Made by a program: the position numbers and the translations under genes. The notes below the pieces were generated by a model, which did not search any database, was not told the origin of the DNA, and saw only the letters and a list, made by a program, of their open reading frames with translations. Source: a virus. From it: a stretch of 64,000 bases of DNA. The stretch covers positions 1 through 64,000 of IMG/VR virus record IMGVR_UViG_3300047491_001293. The stretch is one strand, 5' to 3'. This document shows positions 9,492 through 20,325 of the stretch, one piece after another (within the stretch, counting starts at the first letter, position 1; each line of letters begins with the position of its first letter).

Positions 9492-9533
9492 GGTCTCTCC
9501 TATTTTTTTTTATATATGGCGCCTATCGGTTTT

Positions 9534-9890
9534 TCACCCCAGTTTCTCACGCCATATCTTGGCGTCCTTCCTGACATCCTGGTTGTACTTGCTCCAGTTC
9601 AGGAGGTGGCCGAAGAGGAAGTGGCAGTTGAGTGTCCTGTTCTGGCAGAGCACAATGAAGTTGGTTTCATCCAGTTCCCTTTCGCCATCTACATGCACGG
9701 GTACGACATGGTGCACGGCCAAATTCTCGGTGCTGCCACAAGCTGCGCAGCATGGGTTTGACTCCAGGAAGGCGTCCCTTTTCTTTCTCCACTTGCCGCT
9801 TCTGACGCAGAAGATTGCCCTCCGCTCCTCGGCTGAGAGCAGACCTACGCCTTGGCCTCCAAAGAGCCAGTTCCAGAATTTCCTGATCAT
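9534..9890 (-). CDS. HNH endonuclease
   Basis: CAACG...VHHVVP...N.IVLC...CH..FGH; start re-called to ATG 9890 behind TAAATA (9896-9901). Confidence 0.85.
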   Translation of the reverse strand: MIRKFWNWLFGGQGVGLLSAEERRAIFCVRSGKWRKKRDAFLESNPCCAACGSTENLAVHHVVPVHVDGERELDETNFIVLCQNRTLNCHFLFGHLLNWSKYNQDVRKDAKIWREKLG

Positions 9891-9936
9891 GAGCCTATTT
9901 AGGGTCAATGATCGGAGTTTATGGCATAGATAGGTC

Positions 9937-11076
9937 ATGAGATTCAAAGATTGGATGATATCCGAGAGCTCCAAGGGCATAGTGTCACTGGCCTACCCGG
10001 CGGTTGTCGCAAAGATATTCAACCGCAACCTTGGCAAGCATGCGCAGCTGATGGCGAAGTGGTACCGTGACTACATGTGGCCGAAAGATGAGTTCCCAAG
10101 GAACTGGTGGCACCAGGCTCACTGGTCAGCAAGGGGCAACATCACCATATCTGACTACACGGACCTATACGATGCCGCAACCGACGAGGCATCCTACAAC
10201 AAAATGCTTCGGCAACTGGGGATTGAGTTGGATGGAGGCAGTGAGTTCAACAGCGAGGAAAAGCGCAAGAGAATAGAGATGCTGATCGAGCATGACATCA
10301 TGGGCAGCTCGTTCTTCAACAACAGCCTTGTGCGCAAGATACTATCCGGCGAGATCCGTGACCTGTCGCCATACAAGAACCTTCGCTTTGGCGATGCCCA
10401 GATGAGCCTTGAGAAGAAGATGATGTTCTCCGGCATGAAAACGGTCAAGTCGTACGAGGATGGATACAAGTGGATTGATGTTGGGTCGAAGTGCAGTTAC
10501 ATTGGCAGGGAGATGAGGAACTGCGGCAGGGCCCTCTCAGTCTACGGCGACCAAGACAAGACAATACTTGTGCTTTTCGACGGCAATGAAAAGCCGCACA
10601 TACTGGTCACATATCTCCCCAACGACAGGGTCATAACCGCAGACGAGGGTGTTGGGAGCTCTGAGCCCAAGGAGAAGTACCATGGCTACATACTTGACCT
10701 CGCCAGCCACCTCGGCGCAGAGTATGACATCCACCACGCAAAGTCCAATACCTTGAGGGGCAAGTACCTGCTGTCACGCCTTGGGGCGAATTTTGAGAAG
10801 CTGCCAATCGAGGACACATTTTATGTGTACCATGTTTTTGAGGTTGGTGGCCGCAAGTTTTACACGAACGGATATACTGTCGTGCCCGCCGAGGATGTCG
10901 ACAGGGTTGGGGCAGCCATTGGCGATGGCAGCCTCGTTCTGTCTGGCGTGAAGAAAGGGCGGATTCCACTCAATGAACTGATAAAGCTGGTCATGTCACG
11001 GGCTCACGCCAGAAACCTTGAGGATTTTGGGGTAAGGTACCAATCGCTTGAATCCATGCCAAGGGCTGGGGCTTAG
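9937..11076 (+). CDS. protein with capsid-targeting-like N-terminus (MRFKDWMISES) and PcfJ-like domain
   Basis: W.DV...GREMRNCG...ILVLFD...KPHI pattern; TAGATA-N4-ATG. Confidence 0.6.
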   Translation: MRFKDWMISESSKGIVSLAYPAVVAKIFNRNLGKHAQLMAKWYRDYMWPKDEFPRNWWHQAHWSARGNITISDYTDLYDAATDEASYNKMLRQLGIELDGGSEFNSEEKRKRIEMLIEHDIMGSSFFNNSLVRKILSGEIRDLSPYKNLRFGDAQMSLEKKMMFSGMKTVKSYEDGYKWIDVGSKCSYIGREMRNCGRALSVYGDQDKTILVLFDGNEKPHILVTYLPNDRVITADEGVGSSEPKEKYHGYILDLASHLGAEYDIHHAKSNTLRGKYLLSRLGANFEKLPIEDTFYVYHVFEVGGRKFYTNGYTVVPAEDVDRVGAAIGDGSLVLSGVKKGRIPLNELIKLVMSRAHARNLEDFGVRYQSLESMPRAGA

Positions 11077-11077
11077 A

Positions 11078-11317
11078 TCACTTGAAACCTGCCAGCCCGG
11101 CCTTTATGAGCCCGCCAGCAATGATTAGACCAAGCCCCAGTGGCGCAGACAGCAATCCCCACAGCATGCCAATGGCGGCTGCGCCGCTCCTGTCGCCTCC
11201 AAATAAGGCGATGACCAGAAGTTCATCTGGAACGATCATGAACGGCAGTATCCATAGGATGAGGAAAGCCCCAGAGATGACAAGGATGTTTGCCAGTATG
11301 TTGAGTGCCCTCCTCAT
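11078..11317 (-). CDS. small two-TM membrane protein
   Basis: MRRALNILANILV..., two hydrophobic stretches; ATGA overlap with upstream MTase stop. Confidence 0.65.
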   Translation of the reverse strand: MRRALNILANILVISGAFLILWILPFMIVPDELLVIALFGGDRSGAAAIGMLWGLLSAPLGLGLIIAGGLIKAGLAGFK

Positions 11318-12258
11318 GGCCTGCACTCCATCTGTATCCTCTGTGCGATCCATCGCATGACTGGGACGGCCATTGAGTTGCCGAGTGCCTTGTACCTTGG
11401 GCCATCTGGGCATTTATCCGCCGGCCTTTTCCTGTAGCTTATGCGTGTGTAATCATCAGGGAACCCCTGGAGCCGCTCATACTCGACTGGGGTCATCTTG
11501 CGCACCACCATTGGGAGTGAGCTGTCTGATGGCACGCCGACCACGGTGCACCTGCCATCGCTGAGATCCTGGTTGCCAACGCCCTTGTAGTCCCTTGCCA
11601 TGAGGCAGCCTGCTATTTGCTTTCCGTTGGGTGGCACCCACTTGATGTCTGCTGGCGCAGCGCCGTCAGGAGTGGCTCCTGTATCTGTATGTTTCGCTTT
11701 GCCGCTCTGTCCAGCATCCCCCGGCACGCCTTCTGGCTCAAGTAGTATCTTGCAAGGTGACTTCCAGTCTCCAAGGCATCCGAGAGCAAAGACTCTTCTG
11801 CGCCGCTGGGGAACTCCGAAACCGGAAGCATCCAGCACTCTGTAGGCGACACCATACCCGAGCTGAGCCAGCGACCAGAGGAGGGTTCCAAAATCCCGTC
11901 CTCCACTGCTGGAAAGGGCACCTGGCACATTTTCCCAGAGGACATATCTTGGCCGTTCCCTGGAAACGACCTCAAGAAATCTGAGCATGAGTCCGCCCCT
12001 TGGGTCTGACAGCCCTCTCCTGAGGCCTGCGACTGAAAAAGCCTGACAGGGGGTTCCTGCGACGATGAGGTCTGGCTTGATTGATGGCCATTTTCCGTGT
12101 TCATTGAGGTCTCCTAGGTTTGGCACTGCTGGGTGCCTTTGGGAAAGAAGTTGACAGCAGAATGGGTCAACCTCGGCAACGGCTGCTGTCTCCCAGCCAA
12201 GCGGGTTCCATGCGACGCTTGCGGCCTCGATGCCAGAGCACAAAGATAGGAATCTCAT
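11314..12258 (-). CDS. C5 DNA cytosine methyltransferase, alpha chain, copy 1
   Basis: SLCSGI, GTPCQ, WENVPG, QRRRR, TPVEYERLQGFPD, YKALGNS motifs. Confidence 0.95.
   Translation of the reverse strand: MRFLSLCSGIEAASVAWNPLGWETAAVAEVDPFCCQLLSQRHPAVPNLGDLNEHGKWPSIKPDLIVAGTPCQAFSVAGLRRGLSDPRGGLMLRFLEVVSRERPRYVLWENVPGALSSSGGRDFGTLLWSLAQLGYGVAYRVLDASGFGVPQRRRRVFALGCLGDWKSPCKILLEPEGVPGDAGQSGKAKHTDTGATPDGAAPADIKWVPPNGKQIAGCLMARDYKGVGNQDLSDGRCTVVGVPSDSSLPMVVRKMTPVEYERLQGFPDDYTRISYRKRPADKCPDGPRYKALGNSMAVPVMRWIAQRIQMECRP
11613..12104 (-). CDS. nested +1-frame MTase beta-like chain, copy 1 (EcoHK31I-type)
   Basis: SGMVSPTECW..SEFPS...LSDALETG..ARYYLSQKACRG.L.RA conserved in all three copies in the same frame. 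Confidence 0.8.
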   Translation of the reverse strand: MNTENGHQSSQTSSSQEPPVRLFQSQASGEGCQTQGADSCSDFLRSFPGNGQDMSSGKMCQVPFPAVEDGILEPSSGRWLSSGMVSPTECWMLPVSEFPSGAEESLLSDALETGSHLARYYLSQKACRGMLDRAAKRNIQIQEPLLTALRQQTSSGCHPTESK

Positions 12259-13199
12259 CGCAAGCATCCTCCCTCAAACATGTTGATCCTGTGGGCGATC
12301 CAGTGCATGACCGGCACAGCCATTGAGTTGCCGAGCGCCCTATAGCGAACACCATGAGGGCAGGATTCTGGTGGCCTGCCACGGTAGCTTATCTGTGTGT
12401 AATTGTCTGGCAGCCCCATGAGCCTCTCGCATTCCACTGGTGTGAGCTTTCGTATTGGCCTTGTGGATATGATTGGCTTGTCGCAATTCCTCGTGAGTGA
12501 AGGGCATAGTTCATAGGAGTACTCGGAATTAGCCTGTCCAGTGGCCCGGCATATCAGACCTTTCTTCTTGGTCTTGCGACCTCGAGAAGGGCCTCCTCCA
12601 TTGGCTTTGGTATCCTCTTCCCATGCCTCCCTGCTCGGTTTAAAATCCCCATACATCCCCTCTGGCTCAAGTAGTATTTTTGAGGAATGTCGCCAGTCTC
12701 CAGAATGTCTGAGAGATACACCAAGGACAAAAACCCTCCTCCTTCGCTGGGCCACTCCGAGCCACTGAGAGTCCAACACTCTGTAGGTGACACTATACCC
12801 GAGTTGAGCCAGCGACCAGAGGAGGGTTCCAAAATCCCGTCCTCGGTTAGAGGAAAGAACACCTGGAACATTCTCCCAGAGGACATATCTTGGCCGTTCC
12901 CTGGAAACGACCTCAAGAAATCTGAGCATGAGGCCTCCCCTTGGGTCGGAGAGACCATTCCTGAGCCCTGCGACTGAAAAGGCTTGACAAGGGGTTCCTG
13001 CAACGATGAGGTCTGGCTTGAGTTTCGGCCATTTTTTTTGGCCATTGATGTCTCCTAGGTTTTTTACTGTTGGGTACCTCTGCTCCAGTAGTGCGTTGCA
13101 GAATGGGTCAACCTCGGCAACGGCTGCTGTCTCCCAGCCAAGCGGGTTCCATGCGACGCTTGCAGCCTCGATGCCAGAGCATAGTGATAGGAATATCAT
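12255..13199 (-). CDS. C5 DNA cytosine methyltransferase, alpha chain, copy 2
   Basis: Same motif set; divergent central variable region. Confidence 0.95.
   Translation of the reverse strand: MIFLSLCSGIEAASVAWNPLGWETAAVAEVDPFCNALLEQRYPTVKNLGDINGQKKWPKLKPDLIVAGTPCQAFSVAGLRNGLSDPRGGLMLRFLEVVSRERPRYVLWENVPGVLSSNRGRDFGTLLWSLAQLGYSVTYRVLDSQWLGVAQRRRRVFVLGVSLRHSGDWRHSSKILLEPEGMYGDFKPSREAWEEDTKANGGGPSRGRKTKKKGLICRATGQANSEYSYELCPSLTRNCDKPIISTRPIRKLTPVECERLMGLPDNYTQISYRGRPPESCPHGVRYRALGNSMAVPVMHWIAHRINMFEGGCLR
12554..13045 (-). CDS. nested +1-frame MTase beta-like chain, copy 2
   Basis: ECWTLSGSEWPS...LSDILETGDIPQKYYLSQRGCMGILNRA.RHGKRIP. Confidence 0.8.
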   Translation of the reverse strand: MAKKNGRNSSQTSSLQEPLVKPFQSQGSGMVSPTQGEASCSDFLRSFPGNGQDMSSGRMFQVFFPLTEDGILEPSSGRWLNSGIVSPTECWTLSGSEWPSEGGGFLSLVYLSDILETGDIPQKYYLSQRGCMGILNRAGRHGKRIPKPMEEALLEVARPRRKV

Positions 13200-13200
13200 G

Positions 13201-14166
13201 CTAGATGCTTCCCTCCTCCAGCATCTGTATCCTCTGTGCGATCCAGCGCATGACCGGCACAGCCATTGAGTTGCCGAGAGCCTTGTATCTTGGACCCTCT
13301 GGGCACCTTTCGGATGGCTTCTTCCTGTAGCTTATGCGTGTGTAATCATCAGGGAACCCCTGGAGCCTTTCGCAGTCTATTGGGGTAAGCCTTCGCACGG
13401 CAAGGTTTGATATGTCAATTGAACCGATGGATTTGTCGGAGCTGCCGAGGTGTCCCCTTGGCACAAGTTCTCCATTTGTGAGGCATGGCACAACATGCCC
13501 ATTTGCCATTGTCTGGTGGGTCAGCTTTTGTCCGCCACATTCCGAGTCGAGACATCCTGCAATATCTGGAACAAGGCCGGCGGGAGCTGCCGTGCTCTTT
13601 TTTCCGACCTTCTCAGTATCCCCTGGCATGCCTTCTGGCTCAAAAAGTACTTTGCAAGGTGACTTCCAGTCTCCAAGGCATCCGAGAGCAAAGACTCTTC
13701 TGCGTCGCTGGGGAACTCCGAAGCCTGCAGCGTCAAGCACTCTGTAGGCGACACCATACCCGAGTTGAGCCAGCGACCAGAGGAGGGTTCCAAAATCCCG
13801 TCCTCGGTTAGAGGTAAGGACACCTGCGACATTCTCCCAGAGGACATATCTTGGTCGCTCCCTAGAAATGACCTCAAGAAATCTGAGCATGAGTCCGCCC
13901 CTTGGGTCGGACAGTCCCCTCCTGAGCCCTGCGACTGAAAAGGCTTGACAGGGGGTTCCTGCGACGATGAGGTCTGGCTTGAGTTTCGGCCATTTTTCGT
14001 GCTCATTTAAGTTTCCTAGGTTCTGTGCGCCTGGGTGTCTTTGGGAAAGAAGTTCACAGCAAAATGGCTCGATCTCGGATACTGCGGTCGTCTCCCAGCC
14101 GAGTGGATTCCATGCGACACTTGCAGCCTCGATGCCAGAGCACAAAGATAGGAATCTCATTTTCAT
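13201..14166 (-). CDS. C5 DNA cytosine methyltransferase, alpha chain, copy 3
   Basis: Same motif set; divergent central variable region. Confidence 0.95.
   Translation of the reverse strand: MKMRFLSLCSGIEAASVAWNPLGWETTAVSEIEPFCCELLSQRHPGAQNLGNLNEHEKWPKLKPDLIVAGTPCQAFSVAGLRRGLSDPRGGLMLRFLEVISRERPRYVLWENVAGVLTSNRGRDFGTLLWSLAQLGYGVAYRVLDAAGFGVPQRRRRVFALGCLGDWKSPCKVLFEPEGMPGDTEKVGKKSTAAPAGLVPDIAGCLDSECGGQKLTHQTMANGHVVPCLTNGELVPRGHLGSSDKSIGSIDISNLAVRRLTPIDCERLQGFPDDYTRISYRKKPSERCPEGPRYKALGNSMAVPVMRWIAQRIQMLEEGSI
13521..14006 (-). CDS. nested +1-frame MTase beta-like chain, copy 3
   Basis: ECLTL..SEFPS...LSDALETGSHLAKYFLSQKACQGILRRSEKR..QLP. Confidence 0.8.
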   Translation of the reverse strand: MSTKNGRNSSQTSSSQEPPVKPFQSQGSGGDCPTQGADSCSDFLRSFLGSDQDMSSGRMSQVSLPLTEDGILEPSSGRWLNSGMVSPTECLTLQASEFPSDAEESLLSDALETGSHLAKYFLSQKACQGILRRSEKRARQLPPALFQILQDVSTRNVADKS

Positions 14167-14343
14167 CTAAGTTATTTGAGTGCCATTTTTCAAAAAAACA
14201 TTGATTGACCACAAGTGATAGAAACTTTTAACATGGTTTTCAAGCCATTGTCAAGTGATGATAATTTCACAAAATTTCTTTGTGGTACAAAAAAATAAGC
14301 ATGACATTTGAAAAATTCAATGAATCATTGGATGGCACAAATT

Positions 14344-14445
14344 TTATATGCCGACAGAGTATGTGTTTCCAGATTGCAGTTTTGATTTGCAAATAGTGAA
14401 AGATGAGAACCCAATCAGTGAAATGGAGTTTGTCTTGAATATCAT
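14344..14445 (-). CDS. small peptide, array member (MIFKTNSISLIGFSSFTICKSKLQSGNTYSVGI)
   Basis: Manual translation; ATG abuts previous stop; MI.KTNS start shared with neighbour. Confidence 0.45.
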   Translation of the reverse strand: MIFKTNSISLIGFSSFTICKSKLQSGNTYSVGI

Positions 14446-14628
14446 CTATATTTCCTTATTCCAATTGTCAGAAAAAAATTCAAAATTTAAAGCTGAAAAA
14501 GAAAAAGGTTTATTCATTATCAGTGACCTTACATATGCGTAAGAAGACCAATAACTTTTAGTGCCATAACTATACATATTCAGTGACCAACATTCGGCTC
14601 TAGAAAAACTGTTTGTTTTAAGGATCAT
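14446..14628 (-). CDS. small Ser/Trp-rich peptide, array member (MILKTNSFSRAECWS...)
   Basis: Shared MI.K.NS...ECWS motif with 14986..15198. Confidence 0.55.
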   Translation of the reverse strand: MILKTNSFSRAECWSLNMYSYGTKSYWSSYAYVRSLIMNKPFSFSALNFEFFSDNWNKEI

Positions 14629-14709
14629 GATATTGTCCAACATAATGACCTATGAAAAATCATATTGCCCCATCTATACTAAAAAACAAAAAAACGAGTG
14701 ACTTTAAGG

Positions 14710-14844
14710 TCATGGCTTAGTCCAACATTTACATTTCTTGCTATGTGCAGTAAACAGCAGAGACTTCCTGGCATTCTGCCATTTGGAGAATGAAAACCAT
14801 CTTTCAAAAAGTCTCACTCCTGATTTGCTTATTTTCAAAATCAT
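14710..14844 (-). CDS. small peptide, array member (MILKISKSGVRLFERWFSFSKWQNARKSLLFTAHSKKCKCWTKP)
   Basis: Manual translation; CKCW C-terminus shared with neighbour. Confidence 0.5.
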   Translation of the reverse strand: MILKISKSGVRLFERWFSFSKWQNARKSLLFTAHSKKCKCWTKP

Positions 14845-14848
14845 ACAT

Positions 14849-14989
14849 TCAACTCCAACACTTGCATCTATAACCATTTTTCAAGTTAGATGAATTCCAA
14901 GACAACAATGCGCCATTCCAGCAGTGTGAAAATGAATAAGACCTAGAGAATGAGCCAAAGATGGCAACATCATGATAGAGAACTTTCAT
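14849..14989 (-). CDS. small peptide, array member (MKVLYHDVAIFGSFSRSYSFSHCWNGALLSWNSSNLKNGYRCKCWS)
   Basis: Manual translation; ATGA overlap with upstream gene. Confidence 0.5.
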   Translation of the reverse strand: MKVLYHDVAIFGSFSRSYSFSHCWNGALLSWNSSNLKNGYRCKCWS

Positions 14990-15198
14990 ATGTCATTCAC
15001 CCAATTCCTAGATGCAACAATTGTAAACCTGGAAAAACACTTGGCGTGCGAGATTCCCAAAATCATCGACCTGGACAGCCAGAAGGATGATGTGTGATAA
15101 TTTTGACGCCAATGGTTTGACTTGAAGTTGCCCCAGGAACTTGGGCGCCTGTTAGACCAACACTCTATGTTCGAGTTGCTGTTTGCTTTTGTTATCAT
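14986..15198 (-). CDS. small Ser/Trp-rich peptide, array member (MITKANSNSNIECWS...)
   Basis: ORF track; shared motif. Confidence 0.55.
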   Translation of the reverse strand: MITKANSNSNIECWSNRRPSSWGNFKSNHWRQNYHTSSFWLSRSMILGISHAKCFSRFTIVASRNWVNDI

Positions 15199-18546: not shown

Positions 18547-18762
18547 TTATAAGTCATTGCTCCAGCTGAAGGACATGCCGATGTCAAGATTTCCAATTCT
18601 TGACGAGCATATGGTCATGTTGCTTGTGAATGGTGCACATCTATGTTTTTGTCCAAAATTAGTGGAGCCAGTGCCGCTACTTTCAAATGTGTAGCTTTTG
18701 AATCTCTCAAACACAATGTCCACCATGAACCTAAAAGCGGCCGATTTCAATGGCATGCTCAC
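18547..18762 (-). CDS. small Ser-rich hypothetical peptide
   Basis: ATGA overlap with MTase stop; ends SFSWSNDL like the 14-15 kb peptides. Confidence 0.45.
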   Translation of the reverse strand: MSMPLKSAAFRFMVDIVFERFKSYTFESSGTGSTNFGQKHRCAPFTSNMTICSSRIGNLDIGMSFSWSNDL

Positions 18763-19736
18763 GATTTAACCCCTAACAGAACAGACAATATGGCCTGGAC
18801 AACAGGAACTGCAATGCTGTTTCCTGCCTGCTTATAAAGCTTGACATCGGTATTGCTGCCAGACCAAACGGCAGCCTCAAAGTCAGAATCATCAAAACCC
18901 ATGAGTCTATAGCACTCCCTTGGGGTGAGCCTCCTGATGTGGCCATCTATGAGGTAGAGGCCAGTCTTGGCGCCCCAGCCGCCACCATTCCCGCATAGGG
19001 TTACCGATGTCCCGTTTTGGCTGTAGACCCTGTCGCACTGCCTGTTCTTGCCAAGGTATCCTATTTGTATAAGTCGGTTTTCTGGCTTTGGTTCATCAAC
19101 ACCGAACCTTGACTCCATGAAGCTGTCAACTTTTGGTGACTTTATCCTGTATCTTTCTGGGGCTTCCTCGAGAAGGTTTGCGAGGCTTGCCATGGATGGC
19201 CTTGGTGGAGGGAAGGAAAAGTCACCACCTCCAAGGCGACTTACTATGAAAACCCTCTCCCTGTTCTGTGGCACACCATAGTCCTTTGCGTTGAGAACCG
19301 CCCAGCTTGATGTGTATCCAAGGTTTGAAAGGTCTGAAAGCAATGTGTCGAACTTGTCCTTGTATTTTTTGCCGACCAAGTTTTTGACATTCTCGATGAT
19401 GGAGTACTTTGGCCTCTTGGCATCAAGGATGCGAAGGCCATGCTGGTACAGCCCTGACCTAGTGCCCTCGCCAAGTCCTTGGTGCTGCCCGGCAACCGAT
19501 ATGTCCTGGCATGGGAAGCCCCATGTCATGAGGTCACAGTCTGGGATGCTGGCAACATTGACGACTGATATGTCACCAATGTTTTTCAGCTTGTCCATGT
19601 TGTGCATGGCACAGTATGCGTTCTCCGCATCTATGTCAATCTCACTGAAGGCCACAGTCTCATGGTCAATCGCAAGATTGCGCATGGCCTTCTCAAAGGC
19701 GCCTATTCCACTGAAAAGACTAAGAAGTTTGATCAC
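18759..19736 (-). CDS. C5 DNA cytosine methyltransferase (single chain)
   Basis: LFSGIG, GFPCQ, ENVK, QNRER, LTPRECYRLMGF, YKQAGNS; probable GTG start at 19736. Confidence 0.95.
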   Translation of the reverse strand: MIKLLSLFSGIGAFEKAMRNLAIDHETVAFSEIDIDAENAYCAMHNMDKLKNIGDISVVNVASIPDCDLMTWGFPCQDISVAGQHQGLGEGTRSGLYQHGLRILDAKRPKYSIIENVKNLVGKKYKDKFDTLLSDLSNLGYTSSWAVLNAKDYGVPQNRERVFIVSRLGGGDFSFPPPRPSMASLANLLEEAPERYRIKSPKVDSFMESRFGVDEPKPENRLIQIGYLGKNRQCDRVYSQNGTSVTLCGNGGGWGAKTGLYLIDGHIRRLTPRECYRLMGFDDSDFEAAVWSGSNTDVKLYKQAGNSIAVPVVQAILSVLLGVKS

Positions 19737-19767
19737 TTGATCATTTTCCCTTGATCTGAAATATCTG

Positions 19768-20325
19768 TCAAACTTTTGACACCAATTTAATCCAACTTCC
19801 ATCTAAGAACTTTTGGTCTGGCGATCCGATCATTTCATCAACTGCCTTTATTACTTCTTCATGGCCACGACTGTAATCATGACCGCCTAAAAAACCGCCA
19901 TTTTTTATCAATGGCAGGTAATTTGAGATGTCTTTTTTTACTTGTTCATATCTGTGAATTCCGTCTATGTAGACAAAATCAAAATGATTTATTTTCAGAG
20001 AAGACACAGCATCGTCAGACTTTTTTCTTACATGACTTATGTTTTTAAACTTGTGTATGTTTGATTTAAACTTTTCATAAACAACAGCCAATGGTGCAAA
20101 TTTGCATGCGCTATCCTTGGGATCATAGTTCTCAATGTATGGATCAATGCTCAAAACGGTCTCAAAATGATCAGCAAAAATCATCGTGCTTTCCCCAGCA
20201 TATGATCCTATTTCAATCATTTTCATTTTCTTTGTGTCAGAATAACCAGATATGTACTTAATCAAATCACGCAAGCCTTCAGTGCCTGGTTTGTTCCTCA
20301 TCTCTCTTATTTTTTCTTTGCTCAT
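19768..20325 (-). CDS. class I SAM-dependent methyltransferase (Methyltransf_24-like)
   Basis: IEIGSYAGES, DFVYIDG.H.Y, GGFLGGHDY. Confidence 0.9.
   Translation of the reverse strand: MSKEKIREMRNKPGTEGLRDLIKYISGYSDTKKMKMIEIGSYAGESTMIFADHFETVLSIDPYIENYDPKDSACKFAPLAVVYEKFKSNIHKFKNISHVRKKSDDAVSSLKINHFDFVYIDGIHRYEQVKKDISNYLPLIKNGGFLGGHDYSRGHEEVIKAVDEMIGSPDQKFLDGSWIKLVSKV

What the first reader, a model, noticed from the sequence alone, without database searches (positions are those of the whole stretch)
11314..14166. Three tandem C5 methyltransferases, each hiding a conserved second gene in the +1 frame
Seen: nested ORFs 11613..12104, 12554..13045 and 13521..14006 are all offset +1, about 162 aa, and conserve ECW..SE.PS...LSD.LETG....YYLS.K.C.G.L.R. 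They stay open through regions where the main frames diverge. The single-chain MTase at 18759 carries the comparable segment (LANLLEEAPERYRI) in its main frame. Known: M.EcoHK31I is an alpha/beta heterodimer with beta encoded in an alternative frame inside alpha. Inference: six genes in 2.9 kb; triplication could allow alpha/beta mixing among copies. Standard annotation would miss the beta genes.
Basis: partly seen in the sequence, partly recalled or inferred. Interest (0 to 1): 0.75.

Follow-up and report, generated by a model that had tools for sequence, protein, structure and literature searches.

The report
Three methylases, each with nested gene
A large freshwater phage carries three side-by-side DNA cytosine methyltransferase genes, and each contains a second, evolutionarily conserved protein gene read one base out of step, most likely a small partner subunit that routine annotation misses.

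Summary
Three tandem minus-strand C5-MTase genes (Pfam PF00145, E 1e-52 to 4e-55) each contain a same-strand +1 ORF of 161-163 aa.

The nested frame is a real gene. All 84 alpha copies examined carry it at the same offset (81 copies in 80 IMG/VR loci plus the 3 here). So do 80 of 80 bacterial loci picked by the beta motif. Downstream of alpha motif VIII the beta frame is the better conserved one: 0.58 mean pairwise identity, against 0.36 for alpha and 0.33 for the third frame.

The conserved beta module aligns with the segment that single-chain C5-MTases carry after motif VIII (hhalign E 3e-4). It also occurs naturally fused to TRD-IX-X.

The architecture matches published M.EcoHK31I (PMC2836561). 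Only 1 of 6 phage genomes checked annotates the nested gene (MM1).

One point is specific to this window. Copy 3's beta keeps 19 of 19 family-conserved residues, while copies 1 and 2 keep 15 and 14. This hints at a shared beta.

The scan has found this nested gene before on other DNA. I class it as a new member of a known kind.

The parts
13201..14166 (-). alpha-3: C5 cytosine methyltransferase, 321 aa, first gene of the array
   Evidence: ORF. PF00145 E 3.8e-55, matched in two stretches. phrog_116 E 5.8e-84. TIGR00675 E 1.7e-52.
13521..14006 (-). beta-3: nested +1 ORF, 161 aa, with the canonical beta module
   Evidence: ORF. Offset 1. 19 of 19 family-conserved residues. phrog_16143 E 3.3e-10.
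13557..13718 (-). Conserved C-terminal module of beta-3, about residues 97-150 (coordinates computed from the ORF start)
   Evidence: Column conservation of 0.9 or more at L107, L111, E112, L122, S123, A126, C127, G129, I130, L131, R132, R133, R137, L141, P142, L145 and L149. hhalign to the post-motif-VIII segment of single-chain MTases, E 3.2e-4.
14012..14016 (-). GGAAA, a Shine-Dalgarno-like site upstream of the beta-3 ATG
   Evidence: Sequence context printed; coordinates computed from it.
12255..13199 (-). alpha-2: C5 cytosine methyltransferase, 314 aa
   Evidence: ORF. PF00145 E 7.2e-52.
12554..13045 (-). beta-2: nested +1 ORF, 163 aa, with a 4-residue insertion and 14 of 19 conserved residues
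13051..13055 (-). GGAGA, a Shine-Dalgarno-like site upstream of the beta-2 ATG
   Evidence: coordinates computed.
11314..12267 (-). alpha-1: C5 cytosine methyltransferase, 317 aa. Its start overlaps the end of alpha-2 by 13 nt.
   Evidence: ORF. PF00145 E 1e-52. GAGGGAGG lies directly before its ATG.
11613..12104 (-). beta-1: nested +1 ORF, 163 aa, with 15 of 19 conserved residues
12110..12114 (-). GGAGA, a Shine-Dalgarno-like site upstream of the beta-1 ATG
   Evidence: coordinates computed.
11503..11700 (-). Variable target-recognition region of alpha-1 (approximate)
   Evidence: Alignment columns 601-790 are only 37-45% identical between copies, with many gaps. The unique piece 11445-11779 was recovered in 3 of 4 laid runs.
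12444..12617 (-). Variable target-recognition region of alpha-2 (approximate)
   Evidence: The unique piece 12306-12824 is present in 4 of 4 laid runs.
13396..13599 (-). Variable target-recognition region of alpha-3 (approximate)
   Evidence: A unique piece starting at 13338 is present in 4 of 4 laid runs.

Best explanation
The stretch holds three two-subunit DNA (cytosine-5) methyltransferases of the M.EcoHK31I type, six genes in 2.85 kb.

Each alpha chain (314-321 aa) carries the AdoMet-binding and catalytic blocks, its own variable target-recognition region, and the C-terminal RxLTPxExERLQGFPD and GNS blocks.

Each beta chain (161-163 aa) is translated from an internal ATG about 53 codons into alpha, in the +1 frame, behind a GGAGA/GGAAA ribosome-binding site made from alpha's conserved Gly-Asp codons.

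Only the last third of beta, about residues 97-150, is conserved in its own right. That module corresponds to the segment which ordinary single-chain C5-MTases carry in their main chain between motif VIII and the target-recognition region. Alpha appears to lack that segment. Beta therefore most likely supplies it in trans and completes the DNA-binding small domain.

The first two thirds of beta are kept open but are otherwise shaped by alpha's motifs IV-VIII.

The three alphas differ in their recognition regions, so the array probably methylates three different sequences. That would protect the phage genome from several host restriction systems.

Shown here: the ORFs, their family-wide conservation, the switch of constraint between frames, and the natural fusions.
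Inferred: translation of beta, alpha-beta binding, the need for beta, and the anti-restriction role.
For: (1) ORFs and domains.

(2) The nested gene is universal in the family.
- The beta HMM hits the +1 frame inside alpha in 81 of 81 alpha copies in 80 IMG/VR loci (the best 80 of 569 relatives, 36-63% identical to alpha-3). With the window that is 84 of 84 at offset 1.
- 80 of 80 bacterial or MAG loci picked by the beta motif (the best 80 of 499) have beta nested at +1 in an alpha homologue. None stands alone.
- 6188 cluster representatives match the beta profile at E<=1e-3.

(3) Constraint switches between frames. In 65 non-redundant pairs, mean pairwise identity is as follows:
- beta 105-150: beta frame 0.58, alpha frame 0.36, third frame 0.33, with 138 stops in the third frame.
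- Upstream: alpha 0.45-0.65, beta 0.25-0.44, third frame 0.23-0.39.

(4) Start signal. GGAGA or GGAAA precedes all 3 beta ATGs. An SD-like motif lies upstream of the first beta-frame ATG in 36 of 65 loci, against an 18% background.

(5) Link to the canonical enzyme.
- hhalign of the beta profile against a profile of single-chain relatives aligns beta 97-136 with their post-motif-VIII segment (E 3.2e-4, probability 38.7%).
- The alpha profile shows a 23-column gap opposite that segment (low confidence in that part).
- 3 of 80 single-chain loci give weak in-frame beta hits at that spot (E about 0.003).

(6) Natural fusions put the beta module directly before TRD-IX-X in one chain. This is seen in 6 of the 9 long representatives fetched.

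(7) Published M.EcoHK31I has the same layout. Silent removal of the beta start codons abolished methylation, and beta supplied in trans restored it. N-terminal deletions of beta of 42-67 residues weakened activity but did not abolish it (PMC2836561, passages read). That fits the unconstrained beta N-terminus seen here.

(8) Streptococcus phage MM1 annotates its nested ORF14 as 'DNA methyltransferase; DNA methylation'.
Against: - No direct evidence that beta is translated in this phage.
- The M.EcoHK31I sequence could not be obtained. PMC306636 is not held and blastn against E. coli genomes found nothing like it. Homology to the prototype is therefore untested.
- The published description places motif IX in beta and not in alpha (PMC2836561, PMC3404938). 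Here alpha itself carries the RxLTPxExERLQGFPD block that I recall as motif IX. Either the prototype differs or the motif was assigned differently.
- The link to the canonical segment is modest (probability 38.7%) and not significant against a single sequence (E 0.42).
- Beta has no match in PDB sequences, Pfam or NCBIfam.
- Beta-1 and beta-2 depart from 4 and 5 of the 19 most conserved positions, so they may be decaying.
- Population variants in the module are too few to judge: 3 sites, of which 1 is beta-synonymous and 2 change variable beta positions.
Confidence: 0.7

Rival explanations
1. Beta is a real, separately made protein, but it is not a structural subunit of the methylase. It could be a regulator, an inhibitor or timer of methylation, or an unrelated phage function that merely shares DNA with alpha.
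For: No binding or activity test was possible. Beta has no family name anywhere. Two thirds of it are not conserved in their own right.
Against: It is never found outside an alpha gene (0 of 80). Its module aligns with a canonical MTase segment. It occurs fused in frame to TRD-IX-X (6 of 9 fetched). M.EcoHK31I beta is required for methylation.
Confidence: 0.14
2. The +1 frame is read only after a ribosomal frameshift from alpha. The product would be a trans-frame protein, alpha motifs I-VI followed by the beta module, and not a free beta chain.
For: Natural one-frame versions of exactly this join exist: P0040 (209 aa), P0015 (230 aa) and P0087 (218 aa; a cluster of 80 members, one named DNA cytosine methyltransferase of Collinsella).
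Against: The +1 frame is open far upstream of that join in 84 of 84 copies, and in the window it begins with an ATG behind an SD-like site. I noticed no slippery heptamer at the join when reading the window sequence, but I made no systematic search. M.EcoHK31I beta works when expressed alone from a second plasmid.
Confidence: 0.1
3. The nested frame is not translated. Its openness and conservation are by-products of constraint on alpha or on the nucleic acid.
For: In its first 100 codons the beta frame is no better conserved than the untranslated third frame (0.25 against 0.23, and 0.44 against 0.39). The three window copies are 84-89% identical in DNA there.
Against: Beyond motif VIII the beta frame is far better conserved than alpha (0.58 against 0.36). 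The third frame carries 138 stops there and beta carries none. The indel in copy 2 is a multiple of three. The control family has median +1 open stretches of 56 codons.
Confidence: 0.04

Closest known systems
M.EcoHK31I (E. coli HK31, YGGCCR), the alpha/beta C5-methyltransferase of Lee, Kam & Shaw 1995, known here only through PMC2836561 and PMC3404938
   Same: Beta is encoded entirely inside alpha in another reading frame. Alpha holds the catalytic motifs and the TRD. The sizes are of the same order, by my recollection of about 309 and 176 aa. The N-terminal part of beta is partly dispensable, which fits the unconstrained N-terminus here.
   Different: The papers say motif IX sits only in beta. 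Here alpha has the RxLTPxExERLQGFPD block, and beta instead holds a segment like the one after motif VIII of single-chain enzymes. M.EcoHK31I belongs to a restriction-modification system, whereas these are three tandem phage copies with no nuclease seen beside them in the ORF list. Sequence similarity was not tested.
Streptococcus phage MM1 ORF13/ORF14 (NC_003050) and PHROG phrog_16143
   Same: ORF14 is nested at +1 in methyltransferase ORF13 and ends in the same module. It is the only record of the six genomes checked that annotates the nested gene. phrog_16143 matches beta-3 at E 3.3e-10.
   Different: The MM1 alpha belongs to the FxGxGG/GFPCQ branch, nearer to the window's single-chain MTase. 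It is a single copy. I read no functional study of it.
Phage P1 Dmt, Burkholderia phage Bcep22 gp25, Roseobacter phage CRP-821 gp12, Pseudanabaena phage Pan4 gp35
   Same: All have the same alpha family (37-59% identity) and the same unannotated +1 ORF with the module.
   Different: All are single copies. P1 Dmt is fused to an N6-adenine methylase domain, according to the annotation and my recollection.
M.AquI, the natural split C5-methyltransferase (as described in PMC3404938)
   Same: It is also a two-polypeptide C5-MTase.
   Different: M.AquI is cut end to end between motif VIII/half the variable region and the rest, and the genes are not overprinted. Here alpha is full length and the second chain overlaps it. 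Mycobacterium phage NihilNomen combines both: alpha is split into gp123 and gp124, and a nested beta is present as well.

Membership tests
C-5 cytosine DNA methyltransferase (PF00145 / TIGR00675) | Match above the curated cut-off to the family model, including the catalytic PCQ and ENV blocks | tested here: met
   E 1e-52, 7.2e-52 and 3.8e-55 against a cut-off of 22 bits. TIGR00675 gives 179 bits against a cut-off of 100.65. GTPCQ, WENV and QRRRR are invariant in the alignment.
M.EcoHK31I-type alpha/beta C5-methyltransferase | Beta ORF lies wholly inside the alpha gene, on the same strand, in another frame | tested here: met
   3 of 3 copies, offset +1.
M.EcoHK31I-type alpha/beta C5-methyltransferase | Alpha carries motifs I-VIII, X and the TRD | tested here: met
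   The Pfam match covers profile positions 1-165 plus a C-terminal stretch. The global profile alignment to single-chain MTases has E 5.3e-55. The motif numbering is recalled.
M.EcoHK31I-type alpha/beta C5-methyltransferase | Motif IX is supplied by beta and absent from alpha (PMC2836561, PMC3404938) | tested here: inconclusive
   Alpha here has VRR/KLTPxExERLQGFPD directly before GNS, which I recall as motif IX. Beta has a different conserved block. The 1995 paper that made the assignment could not be read.
M.EcoHK31I-type alpha/beta C5-methyltransferase | Sequence similarity of beta to M.EcoHK31I beta | not testable with these tools
   No tool returned the sequence. blastn of alpha-3 against 5426 E. 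coli genomes hit only 4 Dam-family fusion genes.
M.EcoHK31I-type alpha/beta C5-methyltransferase | Both polypeptides are needed for methylation | not testable with these tools
   This needs an experiment.
Overlapping (overprinted) protein-coding gene pair | Both frames are under amino-acid-level purifying selection, and the alternative frame is stop-free across divergent homologues | tested here: met
   84 of 84 and 80 of 80 copies are open. Identity is 0.58 for beta against 0.36 for alpha in the module, and the order is reversed upstream.
M.AquI-type end-to-end split C5-methyltransferase | The enzyme is cut into consecutive, non-overlapping N- and C-terminal polypeptides | tested here: not met
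   Each alpha is one uninterrupted ORF running from motif I to GNS.

The most novel reading that the evidence does not exclude
The array may work as one adaptor serving several readers. Beta is a generic, specificity-blind module, so a single canonical beta can complete all three alpha enzymes. The candidate is copy 3, the first gene of the operon, with 19 of 19 conserved residues. The beta frames of copies 1 and 2 (15 and 14 of 19) would then be under relaxed selection and kept open mainly by alpha's own constraint.

More broadly, this very large and almost entirely unannotated family, which includes P1 dmt, may have arisen when the canonical post-motif-VIII segment was moved into an overprinted frame. 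Natural re-fusions (alpha-N::beta and beta::TRD-IX-X) would then mark a modular route by which C5-methylases split, swap recognition regions and re-join.
Probability: 0.3. Interest if true: 0.65.

Novelty: new member of a known kind. Interest (0 to 1): 0.55.

Why it matters
Long same-strand overlapping genes under dual selection are rare in bacteria and phages and are still debated. This is a clean, very large example. 6188 cluster representatives match the beta profile, yet Pfam and NCBIfam have no model for it, and only 1 of the 6 phage genomes I checked annotates it.

If beta is an obligatory subunit, phage methylases of this family that are cloned as 'alpha only' with altered codons would fail. 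That matters for methylome prediction, for phage engineering and for anti-restriction studies, including work on P1 Dmt.

The triple array gives a natural 3 x 3 test of whether the small subunit is interchangeable.

Tried and rejected
I therefore could not inspect the gene layout around the database beta proteins directly, and used the search for related loci instead.
- There are no structural models and no fold searches.
- Paper reading of PMC306636, the 1995 M.EcoHK31I paper, failed because it is not held.
- The PDB sequence search with the beta profile gave only two chance-level rows (E 0.12 and 1.3).
- hhalign of the beta profile against the single 18759 sequence was not significant (E 0.42). 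It became E 3.2e-4 only when a profile of 80 relatives was used.
- The promoter and terminator scan gave nothing usable on the minus strand upstream of copy 3.
- The ESM Atlas does not hold the window's beta. For the stored homologue P0048 it returned 30 unnamed clusters and has no structure.
- blastn of alpha-3 against E. coli genomes found no EcoHK31I-like gene (4 short hits under Dam-family genes).
- Literature searches for a description of the nested gene as a general feature of phage C5-methylases found none in the held library. That library lacks most subscription journals, and supplements were closed.
- Laid contigs are broken at the paralogous parts, so no contig bridges two copies. 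Three low-depth joints (depth 2.4-5.7, one contig each) were ignored.
- Population variants within the beta module were too few (3) to test selection.
- I considered programmed frameshifting and rate it unlikely (see rival explanations).


Full report
WHAT IS THERE

The window is part of an IMG/VR virus record of 84,311 bases, rated 19% complete. It is therefore a fragment of a very large phage.

On the minus strand lie three abutting ORFs of 321, 314 and 317 aa: 13201-14166, 12255-13199 and 11314-12267. One base separates the first two. The last two overlap by 13 nt, and GAGGGAGG lies directly before the ATG of the third. All three match PF00145 at E 1e-52 to 3.8e-55, in two stretches that leave the middle of the profile unmatched.

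The copies are 65-76% identical as proteins. In DNA:
- 84-89% identical across motifs IV-VIII
- 56-78% in the next 120 columns
- 37-45%, with many gaps, in the recognition region
- 70-81% in the C-terminal part

This agrees with another first-stage note on mosaic identity (e1-6126752).

IS THE NESTED FRAME A GENE?

I collected relatives of alpha from IMG/VR: 569 confirmed, best 80 kept, 36-63% identical. I built a beta HMM from the window's three ORFs plus database hits of 140-180 aa. I then searched every stop-to-stop frame of these loci.

All 81 alpha copies in the 80 loci carry a beta match (E 2e-21 to 3e-81) inside alpha. With the window, 84 of 84 sit at offset +1. The open stretch is 135-244 codons, median 165.

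Stop counts put this in context:
- The +2 frame has 571 stops in 14,146 codons over the same codons.
- Outside the beta region the +1 frame has 929 stops in 20,453 codons.

As a control I used 80 relatives of the window's single-chain MTase at 18759-19802. Their longest +1 open stretch has a median of 56 codons.

The reverse test used bacterial genome contigs picked by the beta motif: 499 confirmed, best 80 kept, from Proteobacteria, Acidobacteriota, Nitrospirota, Planctomycetota, Bacillota and others. Beta was nested at +1 in an alpha homologue in 80 of 80. Alpha was full length in 64. In the other 16 it was cut by a contig end or broken. Beta never stood alone.

The decisive result is the switch of constraint. 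I kept 82 of the 84 pairs, dropping two with alpha shorter than 280 aa, and reduced them to 65 pairs below 80% alpha identity. Columns were then scored in both frames.
- From alpha codon 54 to about 160, alpha is highly conserved (GTPCQ, ENV and QRRRR at 1.00) and beta is not.
- From about 160 to 205 the order reverses. Beta positions L107, L111, E112, L122, S123, A126, C127, G129, I130, L131, R132, R133, R137, L141, P142, L145 and L149 are at 0.91-0.98. Alpha lies mostly at 0.2-0.7, except for a VLFE block.

Mean pairwise identities:

| Beta residues | Beta frame | Alpha frame | Third frame | Third-frame stops |
|---|---|---|---|---|
| 105-150 | 0.58 | 0.36 | 0.33 | 138 |
| 57-104 | 0.44 | 0.65 | 0.39 | 71 |
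| 17-56 | 0.25 | 0.45 | 0.23 | 113 |

So the C-terminal third of beta is under its own purifying selection. The N-terminal two thirds are only kept open. The few population variants seen in laid contigs fit this. Many alpha-synonymous changes alter the beta N-part. Three sites fall in the module, of which one is beta-synonymous and two lie at variable positions. The numbers are too small to weigh.

HOW IS BETA MADE?

In all three copies the beta ATG is preceded, 5 nt upstream, by GGAGA (copies 1 and 2) or GGAAA (copy 3). These bases come from alpha's conserved Gly-Asp codons. Across the 65 loci an SD-like motif of 4 nt or more lies upstream of the first beta-frame ATG in 36, against 18% at random positions in the same genes.

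Natural one-frame joins of alpha motifs I-VI to the beta module exist: P0040, P0015, and P0087 with 80 cluster members. A trans-frame product therefore cannot be excluded. However, the long open frame upstream with its own start argues for separate initiation.

WHAT DOES BETA DO?

Beta has no Pfam or NCBIfam match. It has a weak match to phrog_16143, 'DNA methyltransferase' (E 3.3e-10). It has no PDB sequence relative and only unnamed look-alike clusters in the ESM Atlas.

Three observations place its module in the enzyme.

1. Profile-profile comparison aligns beta 97-136 with positions 195-234 of a profile of single-chain relatives. That is the FP...L.DILE..V.EKYYL segment just after motif VIII (E 3.2e-4, probability 38.7%). 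Against the single sequence the same alignment appears but is not significant.
2. In a global profile alignment, alpha has a 23-column gap opposite that segment. Confidence in that part of the alignment is low.
3. Among the long representatives found with the beta profile (6188 at E<=1e-3; 150 listed; 9 fetched), six are single chains with beta at the N-terminus. In these the module is followed by a recognition region, RRLTPxECERLQGFPD and GNS. This is the order seen in ordinary enzymes.

In addition, 3 of 80 single-chain loci give weak in-frame beta hits at that spot, and 8 of 80 carry a beta-like +1 ORF.

The simplest reading is that beta supplies in trans the first piece of the small, DNA-binding domain that alpha lacks.

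This fits what is published for M.EcoHK31I. Beta lies entirely within alpha in another frame. Silent removal of its start codons abolishes methylation, and beta from a second plasmid restores it. N-terminal deletions of 42-67 residues weaken but do not kill activity (PMC2836561, passages read; PMC3404938, passage read).

One discrepancy remains. Both papers say that motif IX lies only in beta, whereas alpha here carries the block I recall as motif IX. I could not read the 1995 paper or obtain the sequence. Membership by sequence is therefore untested, and I file this under the architecture only.

HOW WIDESPREAD, AND IS IT ANNOTATED?

tblastn of beta-3 finds 165 phage records, and in every row shown the match lies under a methyltransferase-type or hypothetical CDS. 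I read ORFs in six phage genomes: CRP-821, Bcep22, Pan4, P1, NihilNomen and MM1. All six have the nested ORF. Only MM1 annotates it, as ORF14. In NihilNomen alpha is additionally split into two genes. Earlier follow-ups in this scan reached the same general conclusion on other genomes (e1-5887465, e1-5835216). I saw them only after my own tests.

WHAT IS SPECIFIC TO THIS WINDOW?

Tandem arrays are uncommon in my sample. 1 of 80 IMG/VR loci had two copies (L035), whereas this phage has three.

At the 19 beta positions conserved at 0.9 or more, copy 3 keeps 19. Copy 1 keeps 15 (I130M, R132D, L141I, P142Q). Copy 2 keeps 14 and has a 4-residue insertion. Among 64 other non-redundant family members, 54 keep 18 or 19 and only 7 keep 15 or fewer.

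This hints that one canonical beta may serve all three alphas while the other two drift. With n = 2, co-adaptation to their own alphas is an equally open reading.

The unique recognition-region pieces of copies 2 and 3 are present in four metagenome runs from four studies (lake and estuary), and that of copy 1 in three of the four; they show 0 differences in the two lake runs. No contig bridges two copies.

VERDICT

This is a triplicated member of the M.EcoHK31I-type overprinted alpha/beta C5-methyltransferases. The family is far larger and far less annotated than the literature I could search suggests. Translation of beta, binding and requirement remain inferred.

Noticed in passing
window 11078-11413 (-): An ORF directly downstream of alpha-1 overlaps alpha-1's 3' end. 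From an internal Met near 11317 it would encode a small protein of about 79 aa with two hydrophobic stretches, probably a membrane protein translationally coupled to the array.
   Followed up: no
window 9500-14200 versus 14000-15000: The methylase block has 52-59% G+C. The adjoining stretch 14000-15000 has 31-41%. The cassette may have been acquired from a donor of higher G+C.
   Followed up: no
L088 (Mycobacterium phage NihilNomen) 1230-2350: Alpha is split into two annotated genes: gp123 with motifs I-VIII and gp124 with the C-terminal blocks. An unannotated nested beta lies at 1402-1881. This would be a three-polypeptide version.
   Followed up: partly
P0226, P0242, P0203, P0187, P0200, P0236; P0040, P0087, P0015: Natural one-frame fusions occur in both directions: beta followed by TRD-IX-X, and alpha motifs I-VI followed by the beta module. 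I could not tell whether they are functional re-wirings, pseudogenes or assembly indels.
   Followed up: partly
L210, L228, L205, L234, L241, L242, L248, L232: 8 of 80 relatives of the window's single-chain MTase (18759-19802) also carry a beta-like +1 ORF (E 1e-12 to 2e-17). The nested gene is therefore not confined to the GTPCQAF/QRRRR branch.
   Followed up: partly
L035 1471-4324: This IMG/VR contig has two tandem alpha/beta pairs, with betas keeping 19 and 18 of 19 conserved residues.
   Followed up: partly
L120 1560-3222: In this bacterial locus, beta and the ORF holding alpha's C-terminal half are in the same frame and separated by a single stop codon. Alpha's N-half ends shortly after.
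   Followed up: no
P0002 (163 aa, ENA contig of 672 nt): This is a close variant of the window's beta that looks like a mix of copies 1 and 3. It has a further change at the 0.98-conserved Arg133 position but is still open to the same stop.
   Followed up: no
window 11314-14166: 17 public runs hold half or more of the sampled words of this stretch; by their labels most are freshwater, lake-water or estuary metagenomes, one is labelled only 'metagenome'. All 20 runs that hold any part of it come from 14 studies. The phage appears to be a recurrent freshwater or estuarine one.
   Followed up: partly
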